A stretch of DNA of 64,000 bases. It comes from Candidatus Saccharimonadales bacterium (GTDB lineage Bacteria; Patescibacteriota; Saccharimonadia; Saccharimonadales; UBA4665). The position numbers and the translations under genes are program-made. The first letter of the stretch is position 1; each line of letters starts with the position of its first letter. This document shows, one piece after another, positions 8,412-54,941 of the stretch. The DNA is taken from contig JBDSPW010000007.1 of NCBI GenBank assembly GCA_039930145.1, forward strand, positions 22,383 through 86,382, written 5' to 3'. Below the pieces are notes generated by a model, which did no database searches, was not told the DNA's origin, and saw nothing but the letters and a program-made list of their open reading frames with translations.

Positions 8412-9527
8412 CTACGGATTCGTCGGAGTACCCGAGGAACCAGCATCACACAGAGGATTGCCTGGCGCGCCCAATATATCAGTTGCTGGACCATCGAAAG
8501 AACCGGCAGTCACCATAAAGCGCTTACAGACACTGTCGCCACTCATAAGCGCAGAAGAAGGAGAACTTTTGGGAACAGCGTCGAGCGAAACAGCTACCAA
8601 AATTCGTCGTAAGACATCCTGCGCTTTTCCGGTGACACTTATCTGTGCTTGAGCATCCGCGAACCCAATGTCTGCACCGAGAGCATCTTTTGCGGAAATA
8701 GTGAGCGAGGTCCCTAGATACAATGTGTTTATGCGCAGATAGTACGAATTGACCCCTGCCCCACTGAAGTTGACAGTCGCTGTACAAACAGCAGCACAAT
8801 TTGCAGCAACAGATTTTGCATTATCCGTTGCCCAGACATAATTGCCGCCACCACCGGCTCTAACCGGCTCTAGGAAGTTAACATGCGTGTTGTCCATCAG
8901 GCCATCTCGTGACAAGACATTGGTAGGCGTGAGCTCCGTCCTAAGTACCGGGAATTTGCAGTTCCACGGGGCAGCACCCGTAGCAACCGGATACTGGCTG
9001 GCAGCACCAGGACAATTTGCGAGTGGCTGAGCACTTTGCCCTGGTGCAGGCACCCACGAATAAGTGATCGTATTAAATGCCTGTCCACCCGACGACTTGA
9101 GCTTAATGACTTCGGTTGAAGACGTGTCAAGAGACGGTGCGCCGAGCTTGAACTTCAACTTTGTCGGAGCAGGGTCAACGATAACGCAGGTGTACGACAC
9201 ATTATCCGCCGCGTTACCTATTACAGATGCTGCCGTCAGTGAGGCATACATACCACCATTAGCACATGTCGCCTTTGGCAATATCGGATTATTGGTGTTA
9301 ATCGCATTACGCATGATTGCCAGCGTGTCGTTAAGACCACTCTCTGCAGCATAGAACGCCTGCGTACTAAGCTGTGTGTCAAGCGAGCTGCGCTGTGTGC
9401 GCCGGCTGACTTGGGCGAAGCCAATAACTATGAGGCTGATAACTATTATCATAATGAGCGTCACCATGACAGCAACCATGCCGGATTCTGATTTCCTGAC
9501 CTGATTGGGATATTTGTTAGTGGTCAT
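8412..9527 (-). CDS. PilX-N-like pilus-associated protein (last gene of the pilus cluster)
   Basis: N-terminal hydrophobic segment GMVAVMVTLIMIIVISLIVIGFAQV as in PilX N-terminal domains. The remainder is Cys-containing and secreted-looking. Confidence 0.5.
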   Translation of the reverse strand: MTTNKYPNQVRKSESGMVAVMVTLIMIIVISLIVIGFAQVSRRTQRSSLDTQLSTQAFYAAESGLNDTLAIMRNAINTNNPILPKATCANGGMYASLTAASVIGNAADNVSYTCVIVDPAPTKLKFKLGAPSLDTSSTEVIKLKSSGGQAFNTITYSWVPAPGQSAQPLANCPGAASQYPVATGAAPWNCKFPVLRTELTPTNVLSRDGLMDNTHVNFLEPVRAGGGGNYVWATDNAKSVAANCAAVCTATVNFSGAGVNSYYLRINTLYLGTSLTISAKDALGADIGFADAQAQISVTGKAQDVLRRILVAVSLDAVPKSSPSSALMSGDSVCKRFMVTAGSFDGPATDILGAPGNPLCDAGSSGTPTNP

Positions 9528-44188: not shown

Positions 44189-44455
44189 TTAGCGGCGAAT
44201 GCCGAGTTGCTTGATAAGCGCCAAGTATCCGTCAGAGTCGCGCTCTGCGATGTACTTGAGTAAACGACGACGACGACCAACGAGCTGCAGAAGTCCGCGA
44301 CGAGCCATAAAGTCTTTTTTGTTGACCTTGAGGTGCTCGGTAAGCTCCTTGATGCGCTCGGTTGCAACAGCAACTTGAGCACTAGAACCACCGGTGTCCT
44401 TAGCGTGTACTTGCGCGCTTTTAATAGCGGCTGATTTTTTCTCACTTGTAATCAT
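44189..44455 (-). CDS. rpsO: 30S ribosomal protein S15
   Basis: DTGGSSAQVAVATERIKELTEHLKVNKKDFMARRGLLQLVGRRRRLLKY. Confidence 0.93.
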   Translation of the reverse strand: MITSEKKSAAIKSAQVHAKDTGGSSAQVAVATERIKELTEHLKVNKKDFMARRGLLQLVGRRRRLLKYIAERDSDGYLALIKQLGIRR

Positions 44456-44505: not shown

Positions 44506-45192
44506 CTATTTGCGCCTAAACGCTTCTAATGAGCCAACTTGCAGTCGGTCGGCAATGCATTCATCGAATATCATGGACATTTCTTGCTGCGTTGCTTCCC
44601 CTATCGGAACACTCAGGTACCCTAACCAAAGTTTTGGGCCGCTGATTGGGGAAGGGATGCCAAGTTTGCCCTCTATCATACGTTTTTCTTTGATATGCAC
44701 TGTCGTTTCGGAAGCATCGACATCTAAGACACGGATAGGAAACGCTACCACATCATATGCTTCAACCCGATTACTCTTCGCACCGGTTTTTACTATATCT
44801 ATTGCTTCACGCGTAACGCTAAGGGGAATGTGGCGAGACGCACCAAGGCCGTTAATAGCATCATCGATTGGCTTGCGATCGATAAGTACATTCGCCGCAT
44901 ATTTACTGAGAGTACCAGTCGCGACATAGCGCAGACTGGCTCCTTCGGGATAAAACTGCGCGTTAACAGATTTCAAGGCATTTTGTAAATCAGTTGGTAC
45001 AGCAATTACCTCGCTCACACATCGGCGCCCAATTATTAACCCACGACCGGGATGTTGAGTGCTATCTCGTTCGCTAGGCATGGCTAATACTGCGTGTTCT
45101 GGCTGTGAACGCGATAAATCACGACTTACTCTTCTAAGCCAAGCGGTATTCGGGTGTTTTTGGGTAAATTTTCTGGGCATTGTATGCTGCAT
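44506..45192 (-). CDS. Orphan hypothetical protein
   Basis: 228-aa ORF with no recognisable motifs. Confidence 0.5.
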   Translation of the reverse strand: MQHTMPRKFTQKHPNTAWLRRVSRDLSRSQPEHAVLAMPSERDSTQHPGRGLIIGRRCVSEVIAVPTDLQNALKSVNAQFYPEGASLRYVATGTLSKYAANVLIDRKPIDDAINGLGASRHIPLSVTREAIDIVKTGAKSNRVEAYDVVAFPIRVLDVDASETTVHIKEKRMIEGKLGIPSPISGPKLWLGYLSVPIGEATQQEMSMIFDECIADRLQVGSLEAFRRK

Positions 45193-45354
45193 CTTACTCG
45201 GCTGTCCTCCTCTTGTCTAGTGAAGTCAGCTGGCATTGCTGCTACAGATACTGAATTTTCCGGCAGGCTTTAGCTAGTCTCGCGGTGCGTGGATGCGAGG
45301 GTTGGGCGTCGGATAATCAGATTATCCCTTATAAGGTGAGGCTAATCTGTCCTG

Positions 45355-45954
45355 CTATGCTACGCGTACCGAGTCAATATCATTTGTCGCACTAGACTGC
45401 CCAAGCAACATATACGGCACTTCGAATTCGCCTGGCTTTTCGGTCGGGACAGTAGCAGCGGCAAGTCCTACGACATACCCGCCTATATCTGACACGTACG
45501 CTACTCGCGCAACTTCGCTATTGGGATTATAGGTGGCACACCCATTTATGATGAGCCCGTGCAGTAGCTGACCGCCCGCCCGACGAAATAACTTTTCGGC
45601 CGGAAACCGCGATGGCGGCCAGTCTTCTGTTGTAGACACTGGAAACATAGAAAGAATGGCATCCACATCGTCTTCAGCAACAACCAGAGTCGTGTCGTAA
45701 ATCTGTGTTTCAACTCGCGTTTGGGAATGTGGCACAAGACGGCGAGCATTATCTGTTCTATCAAGAGTCCAGGCATGCGCAGTATCTACGGTATTTTCAG
45801 TTTTGATTAAGCCGTACGAATAGAGCCCTGCACTGCTATCCAGTAATGGTGCTGCAGGATGTTTTTGGAACATGGCGTAAAAAGTAGGTGCTTGGATTGC
45901 CAAGATGCCTTGGCGGTCATCCTTGTGAAAGCGGAATTCAAGATTTGACGACAT
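45355..45954 (-). CDS. Orphan hypothetical protein
   Basis: 199-aa ORF with its own consensus promoter at 46005-46033. Confidence 0.55.
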   Translation of the reverse strand: MSSNLEFRFHKDDRQGILAIQAPTFYAMFQKHPAAPLLDSSAGLYSYGLIKTENTVDTAHAWTLDRTDNARRLVPHSQTRVETQIYDTTLVVAEDDVDAILSMFPVSTTEDWPPSRFPAEKLFRRAGGQLLHGLIINGCATYNPNSEVARVAYVSDIGGYVVGLAAATVPTEKPGEFEVPYMLLGQSSATNDIDSVRVA

Positions 45955-46150: not shown

Positions 46151-46846
46151 CTAAATGTTTGTCAATAGATAGGTATCCAGCGACTCGGTATTCAGATCCG
46201 TAACGAGCTGTGCCCCATCAAGGTTAAACTCTCCTACCACGGTGCGGCGGAGGTCAGACATGTAGGCACCGGTTTTTAGGAGCTTCCCCAGGTCTTCGAC
46301 CAGGCTGCGGATATATGTGCCGCTGCCAACTTCGCTGGTAAATGTGACGTATGGGTAGTCGTAGCTGGTGAACGTATTTTTATAAATCATGGCTGGACGG
46401 GCTTCCAGCTCGACTTCTTTGCCCTCGCGGGCGAGTTTATAGGCCCGGACACCGTTAATTTTCATGGCGCTGTACTTCGGTGGGACCTGCATAATGTGCC
46501 CCTGTAGGCTCCGTAGCGCCTCTAGGACGGCCTTTTCGGGCGGAGCAGTACTCGATACGGCTATTTTTTCGCCCTCGACGTCACCGGTCGTGCTGGTCTC
46601 GCCGAGTTTCATGGTCACTTCGTAGGTTTTGTCGTGTTTGCTAAGACTCGTGGCTTTACGGGTATATTCCTTCCCCACCAGGATTACCAGTAACCCCGTT
46701 GCCTGCGGGTCGAGTGTGCCGGTGTGGCCTACCTTGCAGTTCTTGGGCTTTTTACCCTCAATGGTAGCGACAATCCGACGCACATAATTGACCACGTCGA
46801 ACGAGGTCCAATCTTTGGGCTTATCAACCAGTAAAATTCCTTGCAT
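46151..46846 (-). CDS. truB: tRNA pseudouridine(55) synthase TruB
   Basis: GILLVDKPKDWTSFDVV...GHTGTLDPQATGLL. Confidence 0.92.
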   Translation of the reverse strand: MQGILLVDKPKDWTSFDVVNYVRRIVATIEGKKPKNCKVGHTGTLDPQATGLLVILVGKEYTRKATSLSKHDKTYEVTMKLGETSTTGDVEGEKIAVSSTAPPEKAVLEALRSLQGHIMQVPPKYSAMKINGVRAYKLAREGKEVELEARPAMIYKNTFTSYDYPYVTFTSEVGSGTYIRSLVEDLGKLLKTGAYMSDLRRTVVGEFNLDGAQLVTDLNTESLDTYLLTNI

Positions 46847-46932
46847 CTGTATCAGTATACCGTTTTCGCTGTTCCCAGCTCGTCAGTACGACGTTTTTAA
46901 GTAGTCGTAGAACGGGTTAAGACAAAGAGAGT

Positions 46933-46963
46933 GGGGAGTGGGGAGTGTGGGGCTGAGGTGGGG
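46933..46963 (+). other. Canonical G-quadruplex-forming motif (four GGGG runs with loops of 3, 5 and 7 nt)
   Basis: GGGGagtGGGGagtgtGGGGctgaggtGGGG, with runs at 46933-36, 46940-43, 46949-52 and 46960-63. Confidence 0.6.
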
Positions 46964-47014
46964 CGCAGTCGGCGCAAGTGTTGCACGCCTTCCGCGCCCC
47001 TTCCTCGTTGGTGC

Positions 47015-47302
47015 TCAAGCCTTCGGCATGACGAGAAGAACGAACTTCTTTCCGTCTTTACCACCATCAGTGACGTGGTAATGCTGGTCGAGGGCCTTTT
47101 TGATGGCTGGTCCGGCCAGCGGGTTGGTGTAGCTGACGTAGGGCTTGCCCCACCGGTTTCTGCCGATCTGGACCTTCCCAAAATTCCCTGCGACTGTCAC
47201 GATCGCGAAAGAGTATTCGGTCAGGAACACTTCCACCCTCGGAACGACGTGGTTGTTTGCCCAGTCGCCCAGAAGTTGCTCGGCGAGCTGTGCTGCGTCC
47301 AT
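47015..47302 (-). CDS. High-GC orphan protein (island 3, distal gene)
   Basis: 95-aa ORF. The sampled line 47281-47340 is 63% G+C. Confidence 0.55.
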   Translation of the reverse strand: MDAAQLAEQLLGDWANNHVVPRVEVFLTEYSFAIVTVAGNFGKVQIGRNRWGKPYVSYTNPLAGPAIKKALDQHYHVTDGGKDGKKFVLLVMPKA

Positions 47303-47321
47303 GATCGCCTCCTTCGTGAGT

Positions 47322-47735
47322 CTAGCGCGGGTGCATGTTGCGAAGCGCGTACGGAACCCGGATCTCGGGGTCTCCTTGGTCGACGCGCCGCAACACCGGT
47401 CGAAAACCTTTCATCTCGAGTGCATGAGCGATGATGTTCACCACTTCCGGCATCGATACATCGGGCATCTTCCGGTTGAGGTAAATGGTCACCCCGTATT
47501 CGGCACGGTCCTGCTGGCTGTTGCAGGAGTAGTCGGCAAAATCGCCAAAAAAGACTCCTTCTGACGGCGGTGACGCGACGAAGTACTCGAAATCGGTGAT
47601 GATTTGTCCGATTACAAATGAGGTGTCCATCGCTGGCATCGGCTCCGCAGAAGTTGCCGGAACATGGTGCCACGGCTGAAAGTACGAAACCGTACTGCGC
47701 CTTCTAAAAAGCCAGAATGGCCACATGGTGATCAC
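47322..47735 (-). CDS. High-GC orphan protein (island 3, middle gene)
   Basis: 137-aa ORF with a GAGGAG RBS upstream of the ATG. Confidence 0.55.
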   Translation of the reverse strand: MITMWPFWLFRRRSTVSYFQPWHHVPATSAEPMPAMDTSFVIGQIITDFEYFVASPPSEGVFFGDFADYSCNSQQDRAEYGVTIYLNRKMPDVSMPEVVNIIAHALEMKGFRPVLRRVDQGDPEIRVPYALRNMHPR

Positions 47736-47740
47736 TCCTC

Positions 47741-47869
47741 TCAGTCGACGGGGCGAATAGGCTGCTGCTGGCGACCCTTGTGGGGGTCGGAGTTGGCCGA
47801 CGCGTTCCGCGCGTGATCCTTCATGCGCTGCTGCCGGGCTGCCTGCTGTGGGTCAACTTCTTGTGGCAT
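47741..47869 (-). CDS. Possible 42-aa Gln/Arg-rich small protein (island 3, first gene; below the ORF-track cutoff)
   Basis: My own translation gives MPQEVDPQQAARQQRMKDHARNASANSDPHKGRQQQPIRPVD. Its stop is 3 nt before the next gene's RBS region. Confidence 0.35.
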   Translation of the reverse strand: MPQEVDPQQAARQQRMKDHARNASANSDPHKGRQQQPIRPVD

Positions 47870-47925
47870 GGCGACACCATACCCTCTCTCTTTGTCTTGC
47901 ATTGGCCGATTTGGTCAATTTGCAT

Positions 47926-47953
47926 ATTATAGTACTTTTTCTGCAATTTTCAA
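47926..47953 (-). promoter_or_regulatory. Sigma70-like promoter (TTGAAA, 16-nt spacer, TATAAT) upstream of island 3
   Basis: On the minus strand TTGAAA is at 47953-47948 and TATAAT at 47931-47926. Confidence 0.55.
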
Positions 47954-47983
47954 CATTGCTTGCAGCTCCCCGGCCCTCTCGAC

Positions 47984-48104
47984 GTTCCCGGCCAGACTGT
48001 AGTAAATCGACAACGAGCTTCATTGGCGAGGATTGTGTGAGCGAAGCGCTAGCGAGCGAGTTCCGCAGCCAGTTGTCGTATTTGACTACATGTCTGCCGA
48101 GAAC
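47984..48104. repeat. Imperfect ~31-bp inverted repeat (long hairpin with a ~57-nt loop)
   Basis: Left arm gttcccggccagactgtagtaaatcgacaac (47984-48014). The reverse complement of the right arm (48072-48104) is gttctcggcagacatgtagtcaaatacgacaac. Both arms resemble 54589-54622. Confidence 0.6.
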
Positions 48105-48114
48105 TAAAGAGTCG

Positions 48115-48182
48115 GGCCTTGAACTTTTGCATACTTTTGGTTCAAGCCAAAAGTATGAACTTGGTTCTTGGTCGCAAGAACA
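48115..48182. repeat. 68-bp repeat, copy 1 (67/68 identical to 54846-54913)
   Basis: ggccttgaacttttgcatacttttggttcaagccaaaagtatgaacttggttcttggtcgcaagaaca. It contains the 10-bp hairpin ATACTTTTGG/CCAAAAGTAT. Confidence 0.9.
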
Positions 48183-48292
48183 TAACGGAGGTTCCGATCA
48201 AAAAGTGAATTCTTGATTACATCTGCGAGGGTGGCATATGTTCATATGCCTTATTGCCTCGGAAAGGCCTTATCCGCAAGCGGCTATGCCTT

Positions 48293-50182
48293 TCACTGCG
48301 GCAATGGTGGCATCATTGGAGGTGGAACTGGCGGCGGCGAGTTGGGATTTTGATTCTGAGTGTTGGTGGGTGGCATAACCTGTGGTGGTGGCACCTGCAA
48401 ACCGCTCATGGGAGGCAGCGGCATGTCGAGCGGTTGGTCGGCCGGCGAGAGCGGATTTGGAGCGGGCTCGTTCACAGATGCTGGCGGATACGACGGCAAT
48501 TGAAGATTGCCGTTTGCATCGAGGTGCAGTTCGGTGCTTGGAGCTGGCGCATCGGGAGGTGTTGGAGCGGTATCGTGCTGGATATCGAGCCCCGGCTGTG
48601 CGTTCAGCGCCACAATTGCTTCGGGGGTGGCCGGTGATTCTTGCAGCGCCTTTAGTACTTCATCGCGGGCAGAATCAATATCTTCTCCGAGCTCTGGTGC
48701 GGCATGTGGGCTGTGCACATCTTGTTCAATTTCGGAGAGAGTTTTACCCTCGTCAGTTTCAGAGGCTGGAGCAGCGAACGAAGGTGTTGGGGTGGACGGC
48801 GGGGTGAATGGCTCGAACGTTGGGTTTGACGCAGGTGTTTGCGTCGTAAGCTCTGCTTCGCCGAGTGGCGAAACAACGGGCGCGGCCGGCTGGTCTTCGG
48901 GAGCAGGCATTGCGGGTTCGGCAGGCGTGTCATCTTTGTGTTCATAGTCGTGGCTAAGCAGCTGCTGACTGTTTGAGCCAGGAGCTGTGAGTGATTCGAT
49001 AGGGCCGTCGAGGGCCTCGGGCTTGGTGTTTGCAGTAAGGTTACCATTCTGGTCCGCCGCGTAGCCTATCCCGGTCATTTCGGCAGCTTCGGGTCCGACT
49101 GCTTCTGGTGCAGACGCCAACATGCTGTCGTGTTCATGTAACTGCGTAATTTGTGGCAAATCGTGCTCTTCCTCTTCGGGCAAATTTGGAAGTTTAGGTT
49201 CCAAGGCAGCGTTAAAATCATACGGCTTGTCTAGTTCGGCTGGAGGCTGGATGGTTTTATGATCATCCGCAGATAACAATGGCGTGTCTGATGGCCCTTG
49301 TCCGTCGGAGGGTTGTCCACTGGGAGCATCCTCGCGGCTCGCCTCGTGCGCAATTTCGAGTGTGCCATTATCGTCTTTAGGTTGTTCGGGCAACGGAGCG
49401 CTTGTGTCTACAGAGGGTAGTTGGGCGGGTGTTTCCTGAAGTTTAGTTGCCACTAGTTGTTGGTTGGCACCGGCGGCCATGAGTTCGGCACTGATACTCA
49501 TAGTATTTGACGTGGTGTGTGAGTTACTAAAGCGATCGGTCTCGGCGACGATACCAGTCAGCAACGCTGTGGCAATTTGCTCGTCGAGGAGCGGTTTGTC
49601 TTTGTCTTTTGCCAAATCTTTCGCTAGTACTGCGACGAGTTCCGAAATACTGCTCGCATTAGTGTCCTGCCAGTTGATACTGCCCAAATTGCCATTGTTG
49701 GCGTTATTAATACTTGTAACGGTGGCGTCGTGCAAGATACGACCGTGCTCGGTAATTGCCTGGTCCAGCTCTTGCTGTTCGTGCGCGCCAAGCGCTACAA
49801 CAACATCAACATTGAAGTCCCCCTGCGAGAACTCCAGATCGTCCTGGCTGATCGAGGTTTTGTACGGGGTAATAAAAATGCGGACTGATTTGTCCTCGAC
49901 TTTGTAGCGCAGTTTGTCAGCTTTGGATTTATCGAGAGCAATGATGAAATCGCGTAGGCTATCGGTGTTCTTTTCGAGCGTTTCTTCGGGTTTCAAGAAC
50001 TCCATAGTCGACGGAATATCGCCGCTAAAGACAGCAGTGGCGTGCTTGTCGAGCTTATTGAGAATAATCGTCAACCCAATACAGGCACTCAAGAGATCCA
50101 CAGTTGGGTTATTGCGAACCGTCACCAAAATATTGTTGGCGGACTTGAGCTTTTCTACCAGCTGTTGTTTTTGTTCATTCAT
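48293..50182 (-). CDS. DHH/DHHA1-like (NrnA-like) protein with degenerate catalytic motifs and a ~330-aa Pro-rich disordered C-terminal half
   Basis: The N-terminal half follows the NrnA pattern, but DxD/DHH positions read VRNNPTVDLLSA and ALGAHEQ. LLTGIVAETDRFSN is retained. The tail ends ...PPPQVMPPTNTQNQNPNSPPPVPPPMMPPLPQ. Confidence 0.5.
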   Translation of the reverse strand: MNEQKQQLVEKLKSANNILVTVRNNPTVDLLSACIGLTIILNKLDKHATAVFSGDIPSTMEFLKPEETLEKNTDSLRDFIIALDKSKADKLRYKVEDKSVRIFITPYKTSISQDDLEFSQGDFNVDVVVALGAHEQQELDQAITEHGRILHDATVTSINNANNGNLGSINWQDTNASSISELVAVLAKDLAKDKDKPLLDEQIATALLTGIVAETDRFSNSHTTSNTMSISAELMAAGANQQLVATKLQETPAQLPSVDTSAPLPEQPKDDNGTLEIAHEASREDAPSGQPSDGQGPSDTPLLSADDHKTIQPPAELDKPYDFNAALEPKLPNLPEEEEHDLPQITQLHEHDSMLASAPEAVGPEAAEMTGIGYAADQNGNLTANTKPEALDGPIESLTAPGSNSQQLLSHDYEHKDDTPAEPAMPAPEDQPAAPVVSPLGEAELTTQTPASNPTFEPFTPPSTPTPSFAAPASETDEGKTLSEIEQDVHSPHAAPELGEDIDSARDEVLKALQESPATPEAIVALNAQPGLDIQHDTAPTPPDAPAPSTELHLDANGNLQLPSYPPASVNEPAPNPLSPADQPLDMPLPPMSGLQVPPPQVMPPTNTQNQNPNSPPPVPPPMMPPLPQ

Positions 50183-54284: not shown

Positions 54285-54449
54285 TCTTTCTTGTAGCCAA
54301 CAATTACCGCTCTTCTGGGGCGGTTTTTTGTTTCCCTGGAATTGTCTATATCCTGATGGCCCAAAAATCAGGTCCATACTTTTGTTGAGCCCTGCATTTC
54401 ACATGTTCCCTCTGGCGAGAACCGGCCAGTTACTTTTCTCTTAAAAGCA

Positions 54450-54865
54450 AAGTAACCAAAAGTTCAAGCCCGGCTCTCCCTGTTCTCGTGTCTAAGTTGT
54501 AAAGCCTGACAACCCATGCAAGAACTCCTCATTACGGTATGCCACCGGCATACCTACAATCGTCAGACACCTTGCATCGCCTGACGGAAGTTGTCAGTTT
54601 TACAGAACATGTCCGCCGGGAACGTCCGAGAGGGCCAAAAGCTACCACTGCGTTCGCCGGTGGCGAACCATTAATGAATAGAAGCCCGCGGCTTATCTGC
54701 TGTTAGTGGCCTTAGAGGCAGGCTTCCCGGCTAGGCTGTTGTAATCGAACAATATATAAGCGAGACGTGTTTGAGCCCGTCGCAATGGGCGAGTTGTCGA
54801 GTGCATTGTTCGGATTGACAACAGTATACCGAGATAGACTGACTAGGCCTTGAACTTTTGCATAC
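54450..54865 (-). ncRNA. rnpB: Candidate RNase P RNA (type-A-like, atypical architecture); boundaries approximate
   Basis: Minus-strand blocks occur in the expected order: AUAAGCCGCGGGCUUCUAU (P4 5' strand-like, 54697-54681); GUAAAACUGAC..GUCAG..GCAAGG; the hairpin AGGUAUGCC-GGU-GGCAUACC carrying a GGU motif; and CUUAGACACGAGAACAGGGAGAGCCGGGCUU (J2/4 plus P4 3' strand-like, about 54495-54466). A 12-bp terminal helix CAAAAGUUCAAG (54860-54849) / CUUGAACUUUUG (54468-54457) closes the molecule. No covariance model was run. Confidence 0.45.
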
Positions 54866-54913
54866 TTTTGGTTCAAGCCAAAAGTATGAACTTGGTTCTT
54901 GGTTGCAAGAACA
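54846..54913. repeat. 68-bp repeat, copy 2 (67/68 identical to 48115-48182)
   Basis: It differs from copy 1 at a single position (ggtTgcaag versus ggtCgcaag). It overlaps the proposed 5' end of the rnpB candidate. Confidence 0.9.
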
Positions 54914-54941
54914 CGAGGTGGGTTCCCACCGAGGGAACAAA

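What the first reader, a model, noticed from the sequence alone, without database searches (positions are those of the whole stretch)
46897..47953. High-GC three-ORF island 3 between truB and the DHH-like gene, behind a TTGAAA-N16-TATAAT promoter
Seen: co-directional ORFs of 42 aa (my own call, 47741-47869), 137 aa and 95 aa have short spacers and GAGGAG-type RBSs. Line 47281-47340 is 63% G+C. There are multiple stop-free shadow frames and a GC-rich terminator hairpin (GGGGCGC...GCGCCCC, about 46961-47001). The promoter at 47953-47926 is AT-rich and native-looking. None of the products matches a family I know. Inference: this is the third acquisition from a high-GC donor. A compact three-gene operon led by a tiny basic, Gln-rich peptide could be a novel small system, for example a toxin/immunity or regulatory module.
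Basis: partly seen in the sequence, partly recalled or inferred. Interest (0 to 1): 0.7.

Follow-up and report, generated by a model that had tools for sequence, protein, structure and literature searches.

The report
Fast-evolving small-gene cassette beside truB
Three small genes of unknown function sit behind their own promoter between two housekeeping genes of a Saccharimonadales (TM7) genome; they are a real, lineage-restricted, fast-evolving cassette with conserved control sequences, and nothing shows they were imported from a high-GC organism.

Summary
The three minus-strand ORFs (42 aa; 102-aa core, or 134/137 aa from upstream starts; 95 aa), their SD sites, the TTGAAA-N16-TATAAT promoter, the GC-rich hairpin and the shadow ORFs are all present. 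All three ORFs score as coding in the annotated frame. Composition is only mildly unusual: 57% GC against 50.4% for the window, and GC3 0.68-0.74 against 0.54±0.05.

The window is a Candidatus Saccharimonadales MAG. In 64 related genomes the DHH-like gene and truB are adjacent (median gap 38.5 bp), so this 1.45-kb block is extra. It is not unique. A Logan contig (L081) and a GTDB genome (L052) carry a cassette at the same junction. They share the promoter, and in different pairs the 5'UTR/SD motif and the 3' hairpin sequence. All three have a GC-rich 3' hairpin and a C-rich tail complementary to their own 5'UTR. Their ORFs are mostly unalignable; only the 95-aa protein has a homologue there (33%, against 78% for truB). 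A JGI contig appears to carry the 102/95-aa pair.

No homologue was found in protein-family, PDB, phage, plasmid or viral resources, or in two global protein searches. The high-GC donor idea is unsupported, and a toxin/immunity role is possible but untested. Interest is moderate to low.

The parts
47926..47953 (-). Sigma-70-type promoter TTGAAA-N16-TATAAT of the cassette
   Evidence: It matches 11 of 12 consensus positions. It is 86% identical over 35 nt to L081 791-825, which sits directly after that genome's DHH-like stop codon. The motif TAYAATATRCAAA occurs at the equivalent place in the window, L081 and L052, and only once more in about 1 Mb of related loci.
47882..47898 (-). 5'UTR arm AAGACAAAGAGAGAGGG, which includes the SD GAGAGAGGG of orf42. 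It is the left arm of the 17-nt inverted repeat.
   Evidence: It is 16/17 complementary to 46919-46935. No such repeat appeared in 300 dinucleotide shuffles. The perfect Watson-Crick run is 13 nt, reached by 0 of 1000 shuffles. GAGAGAGGGTA is shared only with L052 at the equivalent position.
47741..47869 (-). orf42 (ABIR37_01010): a basic (pI 10.0), Gln/Arg-rich, probably disordered 42-aa peptide with an internal 22-codon repeat
   Evidence: Annotated by NCBI. Its coding log-likelihood of +0.155 is the best of six frames. The internal repeat is D2, spaced 66 nt. pI is. The only weak resemblance is to the position-equivalent 48-aa ORF of L052 (30% over 30 aa, E 0.015 in a 12-sequence search). 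Whether it is translated is not settled.
47728..47735 (.). 8-nt palindrome GTGATCAC, 1 nt before ATG 47726
   Evidence: GTGATCAC followed within 0-2 nt by ATG was found only here and at the ORF1/ORF2 junction of L052 (8279-8286) in the window plus 81 loci. Its function is unknown.
47322..47735 (-). ORF2. The conserved 102-aa core is 47322-47630 (ABIR37_01005, acidic, pI 5.0). Possible longer forms start at ATG 47726 (134 aa, SD GAGGAG 8 nt upstream) or GTG 47735 (137 aa).
   Evidence: The one homologue is P0002 (97 aa, 64-67% identical, ungapped, JGI sample 3300048101). The AF2 model has pLDDT 79.4 and pTM 0.73, with an alpha/beta fold. The core scores +0.155 as coding. The N-terminal extension 47631-47726 scores -0.264, which is non-coding-like. 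The GTGATCAC-ATG junction shared with L052 favours ATG 47726, so the start remains ambiguous.
47015..47302 (-). orf95 (ABIR37_01000): a basic (pI 9.3) 95-aa protein, and the one cassette gene with a detectable homologue in another cassette read here
   Evidence: The strong SD GAAGGAGG lies 7 nt upstream. Coding score is +0.211. The full-length homologue P0009 (96 aa) is 33-34% identical (E 1.6e-5 in the exhaustive search, blastp 3e-15) and sits immediately upstream of truB in L081. The AF2 model has pLDDT 68.
46955..47006 (-). GC-rich 3' stem-loop (GAGG..GGGGCGCG ... GCGCCCC.CCTC) with no U-tract
   Evidence: Predicted fold energy is -36.5 kcal/mol, z = -2.35. The outer stem and the following ACCTCARCCCC are conserved in L081, while the interior differs. 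L052 has an analogous hairpin at 8565-8609.
46919..46959 (-). C-rich, G-poor 3' tail. Its end (46919-46935, CCCACTCTCTTTGTCTT) is the right arm complementary to the 5'UTR/SD.
   Evidence: L081 and L052 have equivalent C-rich tails, each complementary to its own 5'UTR. Cognate runs are 13, 10 and 9 nt and non-cognate runs are 8 nt or less.
46887..46909 (-). Small conserved hairpin TACGAC-loop-GTCGTA between the cassette and the truB promoter
   Evidence: The stem is identical in L081, with a different loop (alignment). Its function is unknown.
46854..46859 (-). truB -10 box TATACT, 7 nt before the truB ATG (46846). This marks the downstream border of the inserted block and probably gives a leaderless truB mRNA.
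   Evidence: Read from the sequence. Relatives have a -10-like box at a similar short distance before the truB start. The leaderless mRNA is an inference.
47954..48292 (-). Highly structured repeat element between the DHH-like stop and the cassette promoter. It is a two-hairpin module (about 48115-48195) followed by a long hairpin of about 150 nt (47965-48114). It is absent from L081 and L052, so it is a separate, later insertion.
   Evidence: Fold z = -7.66. The sub-folds have z = -3.6 and -4.4. A second copy lies at 54846-54926 (92.6% over 81 nt), with its own long hairpin. There is no Rfam match.

Best explanation
The block is a resident, lineage-restricted accessory operon of a Saccharimonadales subclade. 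It is lodged between the DHH-like gene and truB.

**Structure (shown).**
- A conserved sigma-70-type promoter drives the block.
- A purine-rich 5'UTR follows, whose SD serves a short basic leader ORF.
- Two small soluble alpha/beta proteins of unannotated families come next: a 102-aa acidic core and a 95-aa basic protein.
- The putative 3' end is a GC-rich stem-loop without a U-tract, followed by a C-rich, G-poor tail that is complementary to the operon's own 5'UTR/SD.

**Evolution (shown).** The control scaffold is kept in homologous cassettes of other genomes: the promoter, the 5'UTR, the 3' hairpin and the complementary tail. The coding content diverges very fast or is swapped.

**Mechanism (inferred).** Expression is controlled post-transcriptionally by 5'-3' end pairing that occludes the first SD, or that creates a double-stranded RNase site, as in icaR. 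The C-rich tail possibly also acts as a Rho loading site.

**Function (inferred, weakly).** The fast-evolving gene pair serves a conflict-type role such as a toxin-antitoxin-like, immunity or host-interaction module. It is not a housekeeping function and not a recent import from a high-GC donor.
For: **The genes are real.**
- Each ORF has its best-of-six coding score in the annotated frame.
- orf102 has an ungapped 64-67% homologue and a confident AF2 fold (pLDDT 79, pTM 0.73).
- orf95 has a full-length 33% homologue.

**The block is extra DNA at a conserved junction.** The median DHH-truB gap is 38.5 bp in 64 relatives, and 57 of 64 are under 250 bp. The gap is 1446 bp here.

**The locus is resident and homologous in other genomes.**
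- L081 has DHH-like C-terminus, promoter, orf109, orf52, orf96, hairpin, truB, rpsO.
- L052 has a promoter, a GGAGAGAGGGTAT 5'UTR, a 48-aa basic ORF, GTGATCAC-ATG, an 89-aa ORF, a GC hairpin and a C-rich tail.
- Apart from one extra promoter-motif match in L064, the shared motifs occur only at the equivalent positions in about 1 Mb of loci.
- The JGI contig has a 97-aa gene followed 18 nt later by a 95-aa gene, with spacings that fit this locus.

**Divergence is fast.** truB is 78% identical and the DHH C-terminus 60%, but orf95 only 33%. The other ORFs cannot be aligned.

**5'-3' complementarity.**
- The window has a 16/17 inverted repeat, seen in 0 of 300 shuffles.
- Cognate perfect runs of 13, 10 and 9 nt were reached by 0, 6 and 10 of 1000 shuffles.
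- Each cognate pair beats every non-cognate pair, which reach 8 nt or less.
- Duplex energies have z = -2.0 to -3.6.

**Precedent.** 5'-3' UTR pairing over the SD is documented for icaR (PMC3868564) and hbs (PMC5737220).

**Pointers to a conflict-type role.**
- An acidic upstream protein is paired with a basic downstream one (pI 5.0 and 9.3).
- The orf95 family has unrelated upstream partners in L081.
- The distribution is patchy on a truB tree.
Against: **The function is unsupported by homology.** There are no hits in Pfam, NCBIfam, PHROGs, PADLOC, PDB sequences or profiles. Foldseek gave no match with E below 1e-3 and TM mostly below 0.5 in PDB or BFVD.

**TA-like features are weak.**
- The acidic/basic pattern is not kept in L081, where orf96 has pI 6.7.
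- Neither AF2 model's secondary-structure order suggests a typical antitoxin DNA-binding domain.

**The RNA pairing is only predicted.**
- By duplex energy, non-cognate 5'UTR/tail combinations also pair well, because purine-rich meets pyrimidine-rich sequence.
- The long-range pairs seen in full-length MFE folds are not informative. Shuffled 5' ends and unrelated genes give similar counts.

**The sample is small.** Only three cassettes were read as DNA, and the JGI contig's DNA could not be read.

**Some parts remain uncertain.** The start of ORF2 is ambiguous, and orf42 may not be translated.
Confidence: 0.5

Rival explanations
1. **First reader's view.** The three genes are a recent horizontal acquisition from a high-GC donor, for example the actinobacterial host of the episymbiont or its phages or plasmids.
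For: - GC3 is 0.68-0.74 against 0.54±0.054 for 34 genes of the window, and the block is in the top 4% of total GC.
- Most relatives have an empty site.
- The ORFs have SD sites, whereas only 10 of 34 long genes here have one.
- From general knowledge, Saccharibacteria live on Actinobacteria, so a donor is biologically plausible.
Against: - No homologue appeared in 5.8 billion clustered proteins. The only relatives are one on a contig at this same Saccharimonadales junction (L081) and one on an unread JGI contig whose layout fits it. The 1.84-billion-representative search covered orf95 only.
- Nothing was found in phage, plasmid or IMG/VR collections.
- The codon log-likelihood is typical of host genes.
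- The cassette genes of L081 are also somewhat GC3-rich (0.65-0.74 against 0.60 for truB and rpsO). The bias therefore travels with the locus and does not mark a recent import.
- No integrase, tRNA or direct repeats are present.
- 57% GC is far below typical actinobacterial DNA (general knowledge).
Confidence: 0.08
2. orf102 and orf95 form a type II-like toxin-antitoxin (addiction or abortive-infection) pair of two new families. orf95 would be the conserved toxin and the upstream gene an exchangeable antitoxin.
For: - The two genes encode about 100 aa each, lie 19 nt apart and share a promoter.
- The upstream protein is acidic and the downstream one basic.
- On the JGI contig a 95-aa gene follows the orf102 homologue at the same spacing. 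In L081 the orf95 homologue has unrelated upstream partners, which resembles the mix-and-match seen in TA systems.
- The distribution is patchy and divergence is fast.
Against: - No toxin, antitoxin or defence family matches either protein.
- No fold match was found.
- Neither model suggests a DNA-binding antitoxin fold.
- The charge pattern is not conserved in L081.
- A third, leading small ORF is atypical for TA systems.
- The L052 cassette lacks both families.
Confidence: 0.2
3. The 17-nt inverted repeats are DNA sites. They bound either an invertible segment (an inverton that flips the three ORFs relative to the fixed promoter) or the terminal repeats or recombination sites of a mobile or exchangeable cassette.
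For: - The inverted repeat brackets the ORFs plus the hairpin exactly (46919-46935 and 47882-47898) and is non-random.
- The arms co-vary among the three loci, as expected if recombination keeps them matched.
- The coding content between conserved borders is replaced.
- The same junction carries unrelated insertions and long palindromes in other relatives.
- A palindromic repeat element abuts the cassette.
Against: - No recombinase or transposase was identified in the cassette. The rest of the window was not scanned for one.
- No second copy of the cassette or its borders was found in the window or in about 1 Mb of related loci.
- All three assemblies show the same orientation.
- The left arm coincides with the SD of the first ORF in all three loci, which fits an RNA role better.
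- No target-site duplication is visible.
Confidence: 0.12
4. Some or all of the ORFs are non-functional or newly born reading frames that stay open because the inserted DNA is GC-rich. Only the RNA or regulatory scaffold would be under selection.
For: - Stop-free shadow frames of 94-167 aa overlap the block.
- orf42 has no convincing homologue, and the ORFs of the three cassettes are mostly unalignable while the non-coding borders are conserved.
- The N-terminal extension of ORF2 scores as non-coding.
Against: - orf102 and orf95 each have a full-length, ungapped or nearly ungapped homologue.
- Both score best in frame.
- orf102 folds confidently from only two sequences.
- Strong SD sites sit at the correct spacing.
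- This rival remains plausible only for orf42.
Confidence: 0.1

Closest known systems
icaR mRNA 5'-3' UTR pairing in Staphylococcus aureus (PMC3868564); also the hbs mRNA 5'/3'-UTR interaction in B. subtilis (PMC5737220)
   Same: A C-rich stretch downstream of the coding region is complementary to the Shine-Dalgarno region of the same transcript's 5'UTR. Here the complementarity recurs in three homologous loci with different arm sequences.
   Different: - Nothing is shown experimentally here.
- The transcript is polycistronic and about 1 kb long.
- The complementary tail lies after a GC-rich stem-loop, so it may not be part of the mature transcript.
- The organism is a CPR bacterium, and the RNase III or Rho involvement is unknown.
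Type II toxin-antitoxin operons
   Same: Two small adjacent co-transcribed genes behind their own promoter, an acidic/basic pair, patchy distribution, and partner exchange between loci.
   Different: - No homology or fold match to any known toxin or antitoxin.
- No recognisable DNA-binding antitoxin domain.
- An extra leading small ORF.
- A chromosomal position fixed at one junction.
Lineage-specific ORFan insertions between conserved backbone genes in streamlined CPR genomes (variable junctions, genomic islets)
   Same: Backbone synteny (DHH-like, truB, rpsO) is conserved while junctions carry unrelated small genes. About 7-11 of 64 DHH-truB junctions and 32 of 54 truB-rpsO junctions are enlarged in relatives.
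   Different: This islet keeps a homologous promoter, 5'UTR and 3' scaffold across genomes while the ORFs change. That is more organised than a random insertion.
Invertons (phase-variable invertible DNA segments flanked by inverted repeats)
   Same: Inverted repeats of 13-17 nt flank a segment of about 1 kb next to a fixed promoter.
   Different: No invertase was identified, only one orientation is seen in three assemblies, and the arm overlaps an SD. This could not be tested without reads.

Membership tests
Type II toxin-antitoxin system | Two small adjacent genes in one operon | tested here: met
   orf102 and orf95 are 19 nt apart, each with an SD, behind one promoter. On the JGI contig a 95-aa gene follows the orf102 homologue 18 nt downstream.
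Type II toxin-antitoxin system | At least one partner belongs to a known toxin or antitoxin family or fold | tested here: not met
   There were no significant hits (only chance-level matches with E of about 0.03 or worse) in Pfam, NCBIfam, PADLOC, PHROGs or PDB sequences and profiles. Foldseek found nothing with E below 1e-3.
Type II toxin-antitoxin system | Toxicity of one product, neutralised by direct binding of the other | not testable with these tools
   This needs expression and binding experiments.
icaR-type 5'-3' UTR anti-SD pairing | A downstream pyrimidine-rich sequence complementary to the SD region of the same mRNA | tested here: met
   The repeat is 16/17 complementary, seen in 0 of 300 shuffles, with a 13-nt perfect run reached by 0 of 1000 shuffles.
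icaR-type 5'-3' UTR anti-SD pairing | Pairing maintained by co-variation in homologous loci | tested here: met
   Cognate runs are 13, 10 and 9 nt in the window, L081 and L052, and every non-cognate combination is 8 nt or less. By duplex energy the cognate advantage is not clear, and only three loci are available.
icaR-type 5'-3' UTR anti-SD pairing | Both arms lie on one transcript and pair in vivo, affecting translation or RNase cleavage | not testable with these tools
   MFE folds do show the pairing, but the control shows such counts are uninformative. Transcript ends are unknown.
Horizontally acquired genomic island from a high-GC donor | Composition clearly atypical for the host | tested here: inconclusive
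   GC3 is about 3 SD above the gene mean, but total GC is only about 1.8-2 SD above, the flanks are similar, and the codon log-likelihood is host-like.
Horizontally acquired genomic island from a high-GC donor | Homologues in the proposed donor group | tested here: not met
   The only relatives are one at the same Saccharimonadales junction (L081) and one on an unread JGI contig whose layout fits it.
Horizontally acquired genomic island from a high-GC donor | Empty site in relatives | tested here: met
   In 57 of 64 relatives fewer than 250 bp separate the DHH-like gene and truB. However, three or four other genomes carry a homologous cassette there.
Horizontally acquired genomic island from a high-GC donor | Mobility signatures (integrase, tRNA target, direct repeats) | tested here: not met
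   There is no tRNA within 40 kb, only chance-level short direct repeats with none at the block's borders, and no Pfam domains in the cassette ORFs.
Inverton or TIR-bounded mobile cassette | Flanking inverted repeats | tested here: met
   (I1).
Inverton or TIR-bounded mobile cassette | Both orientations, or multiple genomic copies | tested here: not met
   There was no second copy in the window or in 81 loci. Three assemblies share one orientation. Read-level orientation could not be tested.

The most novel reading that the evidence does not exclude
The DHH-truB junction of a Saccharimonadales subclade hosts a dedicated expression slot. Its conserved parts are a promoter, an SD-bearing 5'UTR, a 3' stem-loop and a co-varying anti-5'UTR tail. 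The small protein genes inside are exchanged or diversify extremely fast. That would make it a previously undescribed cassette system for conflict or host-interaction proteins in an episymbiotic CPR bacterium, controlled by 5'-3' RNA circularisation or by DNA inversion.
Probability: 0.2. Interest if true: 0.6.

Novelty: new variant of a known kind. Interest (0 to 1): 0.35.

Why it matters
If the scaffold is functional, it would give a concrete, testable example of how streamlined episymbiotic CPR bacteria keep a small, rapidly changing set of accessory proteins at a fixed chromosomal slot. It would also be a candidate case of bacterial 5'-3' UTR pairing outside Firmicutes. It adds two small protein families with no annotation; one has a confident predicted fold but no structural match. 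As it stands, ORFan genes are very common in CPR genomes and no function can be assigned. The practical value is modest: it corrects the high-GC import reading and defines the locus and its relatives for anyone with transcriptomic or read-level data.

Tried and rejected
**Family and sequence searches that found nothing.**
- Pfam, NCBIfam, PHROGs and PADLOC scans of the three ORFs gave nothing significant. Pfam and PADLOC scans of the cassette ORFs of L081, L052 and L068 gave nothing either.
- PDB sequence and profile searches found nothing.
- Foldseek of both AF2 models against PDB, and of orf102 against BFVD, gave only weak, inconsistent matches: T3SS chaperone AvrPphF ORF1, the MotA C-terminal domain and YbjN, at E of 0.02 or worse and mostly TM below 0.5. 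I rejected these as evidence.
- No paralogy was found between orf102 and orf95, although their secondary-structure order is similar.
- No homology was found between the other cassette ORFs.

**Collection scans that found nothing.**
- The search for related loci with the orf102 alignment in metagenome contigs and genome contigs returned no confirmed locus.
- A DNA pattern from the truB-upstream boundary had 0 matches in metagenome contigs.
- IMG/VR scans found nothing.
- tblastn against the phage and plasmid collections found nothing.
- The JGI contig's DNA was not retrievable.

**False positives.** Three hits of the exhaustive search (P0008, P0010, P0011) are long, highly repetitive proteins matched over 36-40 residues. 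I rejected them.

**An argument I dropped.** I first took the long-range 5'-3' pairs in full-length MFE folds, with pair probabilities near 1.0, as support for RNA circularisation. The control with shuffled 5' ends and with unrelated genes gave similar counts, so I dropped that argument. The first version of that control timed out.

**RNA families.** Rfam found no family in or next to the block.

**hmmsearch.** Profiles A2 and A4, searched against all ORFs of 40 aa or more in the 81 loci and the window, found no further members.
Full report
**1. What is in the sequence**

On the minus strand, between a DHH-family gene (48293-50182; Pfam DHH E 2e-4, weak NrnA-like) and truB (46151-46846; TIGR00431 E 7e-62), there are 1446 bp of extra sequence. 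Reading 5' to 3' on the minus strand, it contains:

- A 339-nt non-coding stretch (48292-47954).
- A sigma-70-type promoter, TTGAAA-N16-TATAAT (47953-47926, 11 of 12 consensus positions).
- A purine-rich 5'UTR with the SD GAGAGAGGG.
- orf42 (47869-47741).
- GAGGAG followed by the palindrome GTGATCAC and then ATG 47726. This opens the second ORF, which runs to 47322.
- GAAGGAGG and orf95 (47302-47015).
- A GC-rich stem-loop (about 47006-46955; -36.5 kcal/mol, z = -2.35).
- A C-rich, G-poor tail (46959-46919).
- A small hairpin, TACGAC...GTCGTA (46909-46887).
- The truB -10 box TATACT, 7 nt before the truB ATG.

NCBI's annotation of this MAG (Candidatus Saccharimonadales bacterium, tags ABIR37_01000/01005/01010) calls the 95-aa product, a 102-aa product and the 42-aa product.

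**2. Are they genes?**

I built a codon model from 32 long genes of the window. The annotated frame is the best of six for each ORF: +0.155 per codon for orf42, +0.155 for orf102 and +0.211 for orf95. The in-frame norm is 0.21±0.10-0.12 and the off-frame norm is -0.29.

The overlapping shadow ORFs of 94-167 aa lie in the other five frames, which all score lower.

The start of the second ORF is unresolved:
- The N-terminal extension (47631-47726) scores -0.264, which is non-coding-like.
- The extension is absent from the called homologue. This agrees with the 102-aa annotation.
- The SD spacing favours ATG 47726, as does the same GTGATCAC-ATG junction in L052.

orf102 gives a confident AF2 model from only two sequences: pLDDT 79.4, pTM 0.73, with order H-E-E-H-E-H-E-E. 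The orf95 model is weaker: pLDDT 68, with order H-E-E-E-H-E-E.

**3. Composition**

- The stated interval is 56.4% GC. The three-ORF block is 57.4%, in the top 4% of equal-sized windows. The window mean is 50.4±3.4%.
- The neighbouring halves of truB and of the DHH-like gene are 55-60% GC, so there is no sharp step.
- GC3 is clearly high: 0.68-0.74 against 0.54±0.054, with a maximum of 0.634 among the 34 genes.

The bias is real but moderate. The truly GC-rich spots of the window lie elsewhere, at 22.5-24.5 kb and 33-34.5 kb, where GC reaches 63%.

**4. Relatives and the empty site**

Anchoring on the DHH-like N-terminal domain returned 80 Saccharimonadales loci from GTDB species representatives.

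- In 64 loci with both genes readable on the same strand, truB follows the DHH-like gene. The median gap is 38.5 bp, and 57 of 64 gaps are under 250 bp.
- None of the 80 loci encodes a homologue of the three proteins, by tblastn at E ≤ 1e-3 or by profile HMMs.
- The short gaps typically contain only a -10-like box 7-9 nt before the truB start. The ancestral state is therefore DHH-stop, -10 box, then a probably leaderless truB.
- Seven loci have other, unrelated insertions of 519-4075 bp at this junction. By inspection of the translations (not tested), these include PurM-like genes and a 1331-aa protein. Others have long palindromes there.

**5. The block is not unique to this MAG**

The word-indexed search of 5.8 billion proteins found only two kinds of hit:
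- The self-hits.
- One homologue of orf102 (P0002, 97 aa, 64-67% identical). It sits on a 2146-bp JGI contig and is followed 18 nt later by a 95-aa gene. The lengths and spacings fit this locus, but its DNA could not be read.

The exhaustive phmmer search of 1.84 billion representatives was run with orf95. It found one true full-length relative, P0009 (96 aa, 33-34% identical, E 1.6e-5; blastp 3e-15), plus three repetitive false positives.

P0009 lies on Logan contig L081. Its gene order is DHH-like C-terminus, promoter, orf109, orf52, orf96, GC hairpin, truB, rpsO. Between the window and L081:
- truB is 78% identical and the DHH C-terminus 60%, but orf95 only 33%.
- The other cassette ORFs cannot be aligned.
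- The promoter is 86% identical over 35 nt.
- The outer stem of the 3' hairpin plus ACCTCARCCCC is conserved.
- Everything from 46936 into truB is conserved.

L052, one of the seven loci with enlarged gaps, has the same layout:
- A TTGCAA-N16-TACAAT promoter immediately after the DHH stop.
- A 5'UTR, GGAGAGAGGGTAT.
- A 48-aa basic ORF.
- GTGATCAC-ATG.
- An 89-aa ORF.
- A GC hairpin.
- A C-rich tail.

The short motifs GAGAGAGGGTA, TAYAATATRCAAA and GTGATCAC-ATG occur at these equivalent positions in about 1 Mb of related sequence. The only match elsewhere is one extra promoter-motif hit in L064.

On a truB neighbour-joining tree, which is a single short gene and only indicative, cassette-bearing and empty genomes are interleaved.

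**6. The flanking complementarity**

A 17-nt inverted repeat, 16/17 complementary, brackets the ORFs and the hairpin. Its arms are 47898-47882, which overlaps the orf42 SD, and 46935-46919.

- Nothing like it appeared in 300 dinucleotide shuffles of the 1.6-kb region.
- L081 and L052 have the equivalent complementarity with different arm sequences.
- The longest perfect Watson-Crick runs are 13, 10 and 9 nt, reached by 0, 6 and 10 of 1000 shuffles.
- Each cognate pair beats every non-cognate pair, which reach 8 nt or less.

Two caveats apply:
- By duplex energy the cognate preference is not clear, because any purine-rich 5'UTR pairs with any C-rich tail.
- The long-range pairs in full-length MFE folds are uninformative. 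Shuffled 5' ends and unrelated genes give similar counts.

The maintained complementarity is real. Whether it acts in RNA or in DNA cannot be decided here. In RNA it would be anti-SD pairing of the icaR type (PMC3868564) or end-pairing of the hbs type (PMC5737220). In DNA it would be inverton or recombination sites. The C-rich, G-poor tail is also what a Rho loading site looks like (general knowledge).

**7. Function**

No family, fold or context clue assigns a function.

Features compatible with a conflict-type module (TA-like, immunity or host interaction):
- Two genes of about 100 aa each lie 19 nt apart.
- The pair is acidic (pI 5.0) then basic (pI 9.3).
- The orf95 family has different partners in different genomes.
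- Divergence is fast relative to the flanking genes.
- The distribution is patchy.

Features against:
- There is no known toxin, antitoxin or defence homology.
- Neither model suggests a DNA-binding fold.
- The charge pattern is not conserved.
- L052 lacks both families.

I commit to this reading: a self-promoted accessory operon with a conserved regulatory scaffold and rapidly changing small proteins, probably regulated through its 5'/3' complementary ends. Confidence is about 0.5 for that description and about 0.2 for a TA-type role specifically.

**8.

Acquisition from a high-GC donor is not supported:
- No outside homologues exist.
- Codon usage is host-like.
- A homologous locus exists in other Saccharimonadales.
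- No mobility signatures are present.

It is met for the first part and not for the second: most relatives lack the genes.

**9. The adjacent 339-nt stretch**

The stretch 47954-48292 is a separate element. It folds far better than shuffles do (z = -7.66). It consists of a two-hairpin module followed by a long hairpin of about 150 nt. The module recurs at 54846-54926 (92.6% over 81 nt), again followed by a long hairpin of different sequence. More fragments, some inverted, lie in the 54.36-54.75 kb part of the same intergenic region. L081 and L052 lack it, so it inserted later between the DHH stop and the cassette promoter. It resembles a MITE- or REP-like palindromic repeat. Rfam has no match.

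**10. Verdict**

The genes are real, lineage-restricted and of unknown function. The most interesting aspect is the conserved control scaffold with co-varying end complementarity around fast-changing ORFs. Given how common ORFans are in CPR genomes, and that the support rests on three loci, interest is moderate to low (0.35).

Noticed in passing
window 47954-48292 and 54360-54930 (minus strand): A palindromic repeat family. It has a nearly identical two-hairpin module (48115-48195 and 54846-54926, 92.6% over 81 nt), each followed by a long hairpin of about 150 nt whose arms differ in sequence but stay complementary. Further fragments, some inverted, lie in the 657-nt holA-like/rpsT convergent intergenic region. 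Fold z = -7.66. There is no Rfam hit, and among the 81 related loci only L013 clearly has it. It could be a MITE- or REP-like element or an unknown ncRNA.
   Followed up: partly
window 46844-46859 (truB) and many other gene starts; L001-L080 DHH-truB gaps: truB and roughly a third of the long genes in the window have a -10-like box (TATAAT, TACAAT or TATACT) ending 7-10 nt before the start codon and no SD. Only 10 of 34 genes have an SD-like motif. The same holds for truB in many relatives. This suggests widespread leaderless mRNAs in this Saccharimonadales clade.
   Followed up: partly
window 44506-45954: Two more ORFan genes (199 aa and 228 aa, GC3 0.40-0.45, no Pfam/NCBIfam/PHROG/PADLOC hit) sit between truB and rpsO (44192-44455). 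They are absent from all 80 related loci. The truB-rpsO gap is also highly variable in relatives, from 25 to 4105 bp.
   Followed up: partly
The first holds a 399-aa ORF with a C-terminal sortase domain (E 3e-6) overlapped by a 367-aa ORF in another frame. The second holds a 278-aa ORF with no Pfam match.
   Followed up: no
L007 7912-8046, L068 7909-8041, L035 7936-8116, L032 7738-7917: In several relatives the same DHH-truB junction holds long perfect or near-perfect palindromes. In L068 the palindrome is followed by a TTGACC-N17-TATAAT promoter and an apparently leaderless 113-aa ORFan. L032 carries a duplicated truB 5' fragment. The junction is recombinationally active in this clade.
   Followed up: partly
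window 48293-49400 (C-terminal half of the DHH-like protein): The DHH-like protein has a Pro/Gln/Ala-rich, low-complexity C-terminal tail of about 370 aa. The region has strong GC skew (+0.2 to +0.28 on the plus strand). The tail's length varies widely among relatives, whose proteins are about 490-750 aa.
   Followed up: no
window 47761-47854: orf42 contains an in-frame internal repeat with a 66-nt (22-codon) period. The 28-nt units are 71% identical and give the peptide motifs DPQQAARQQ and DPHKGRQQQ (D2).
   Followed up: no
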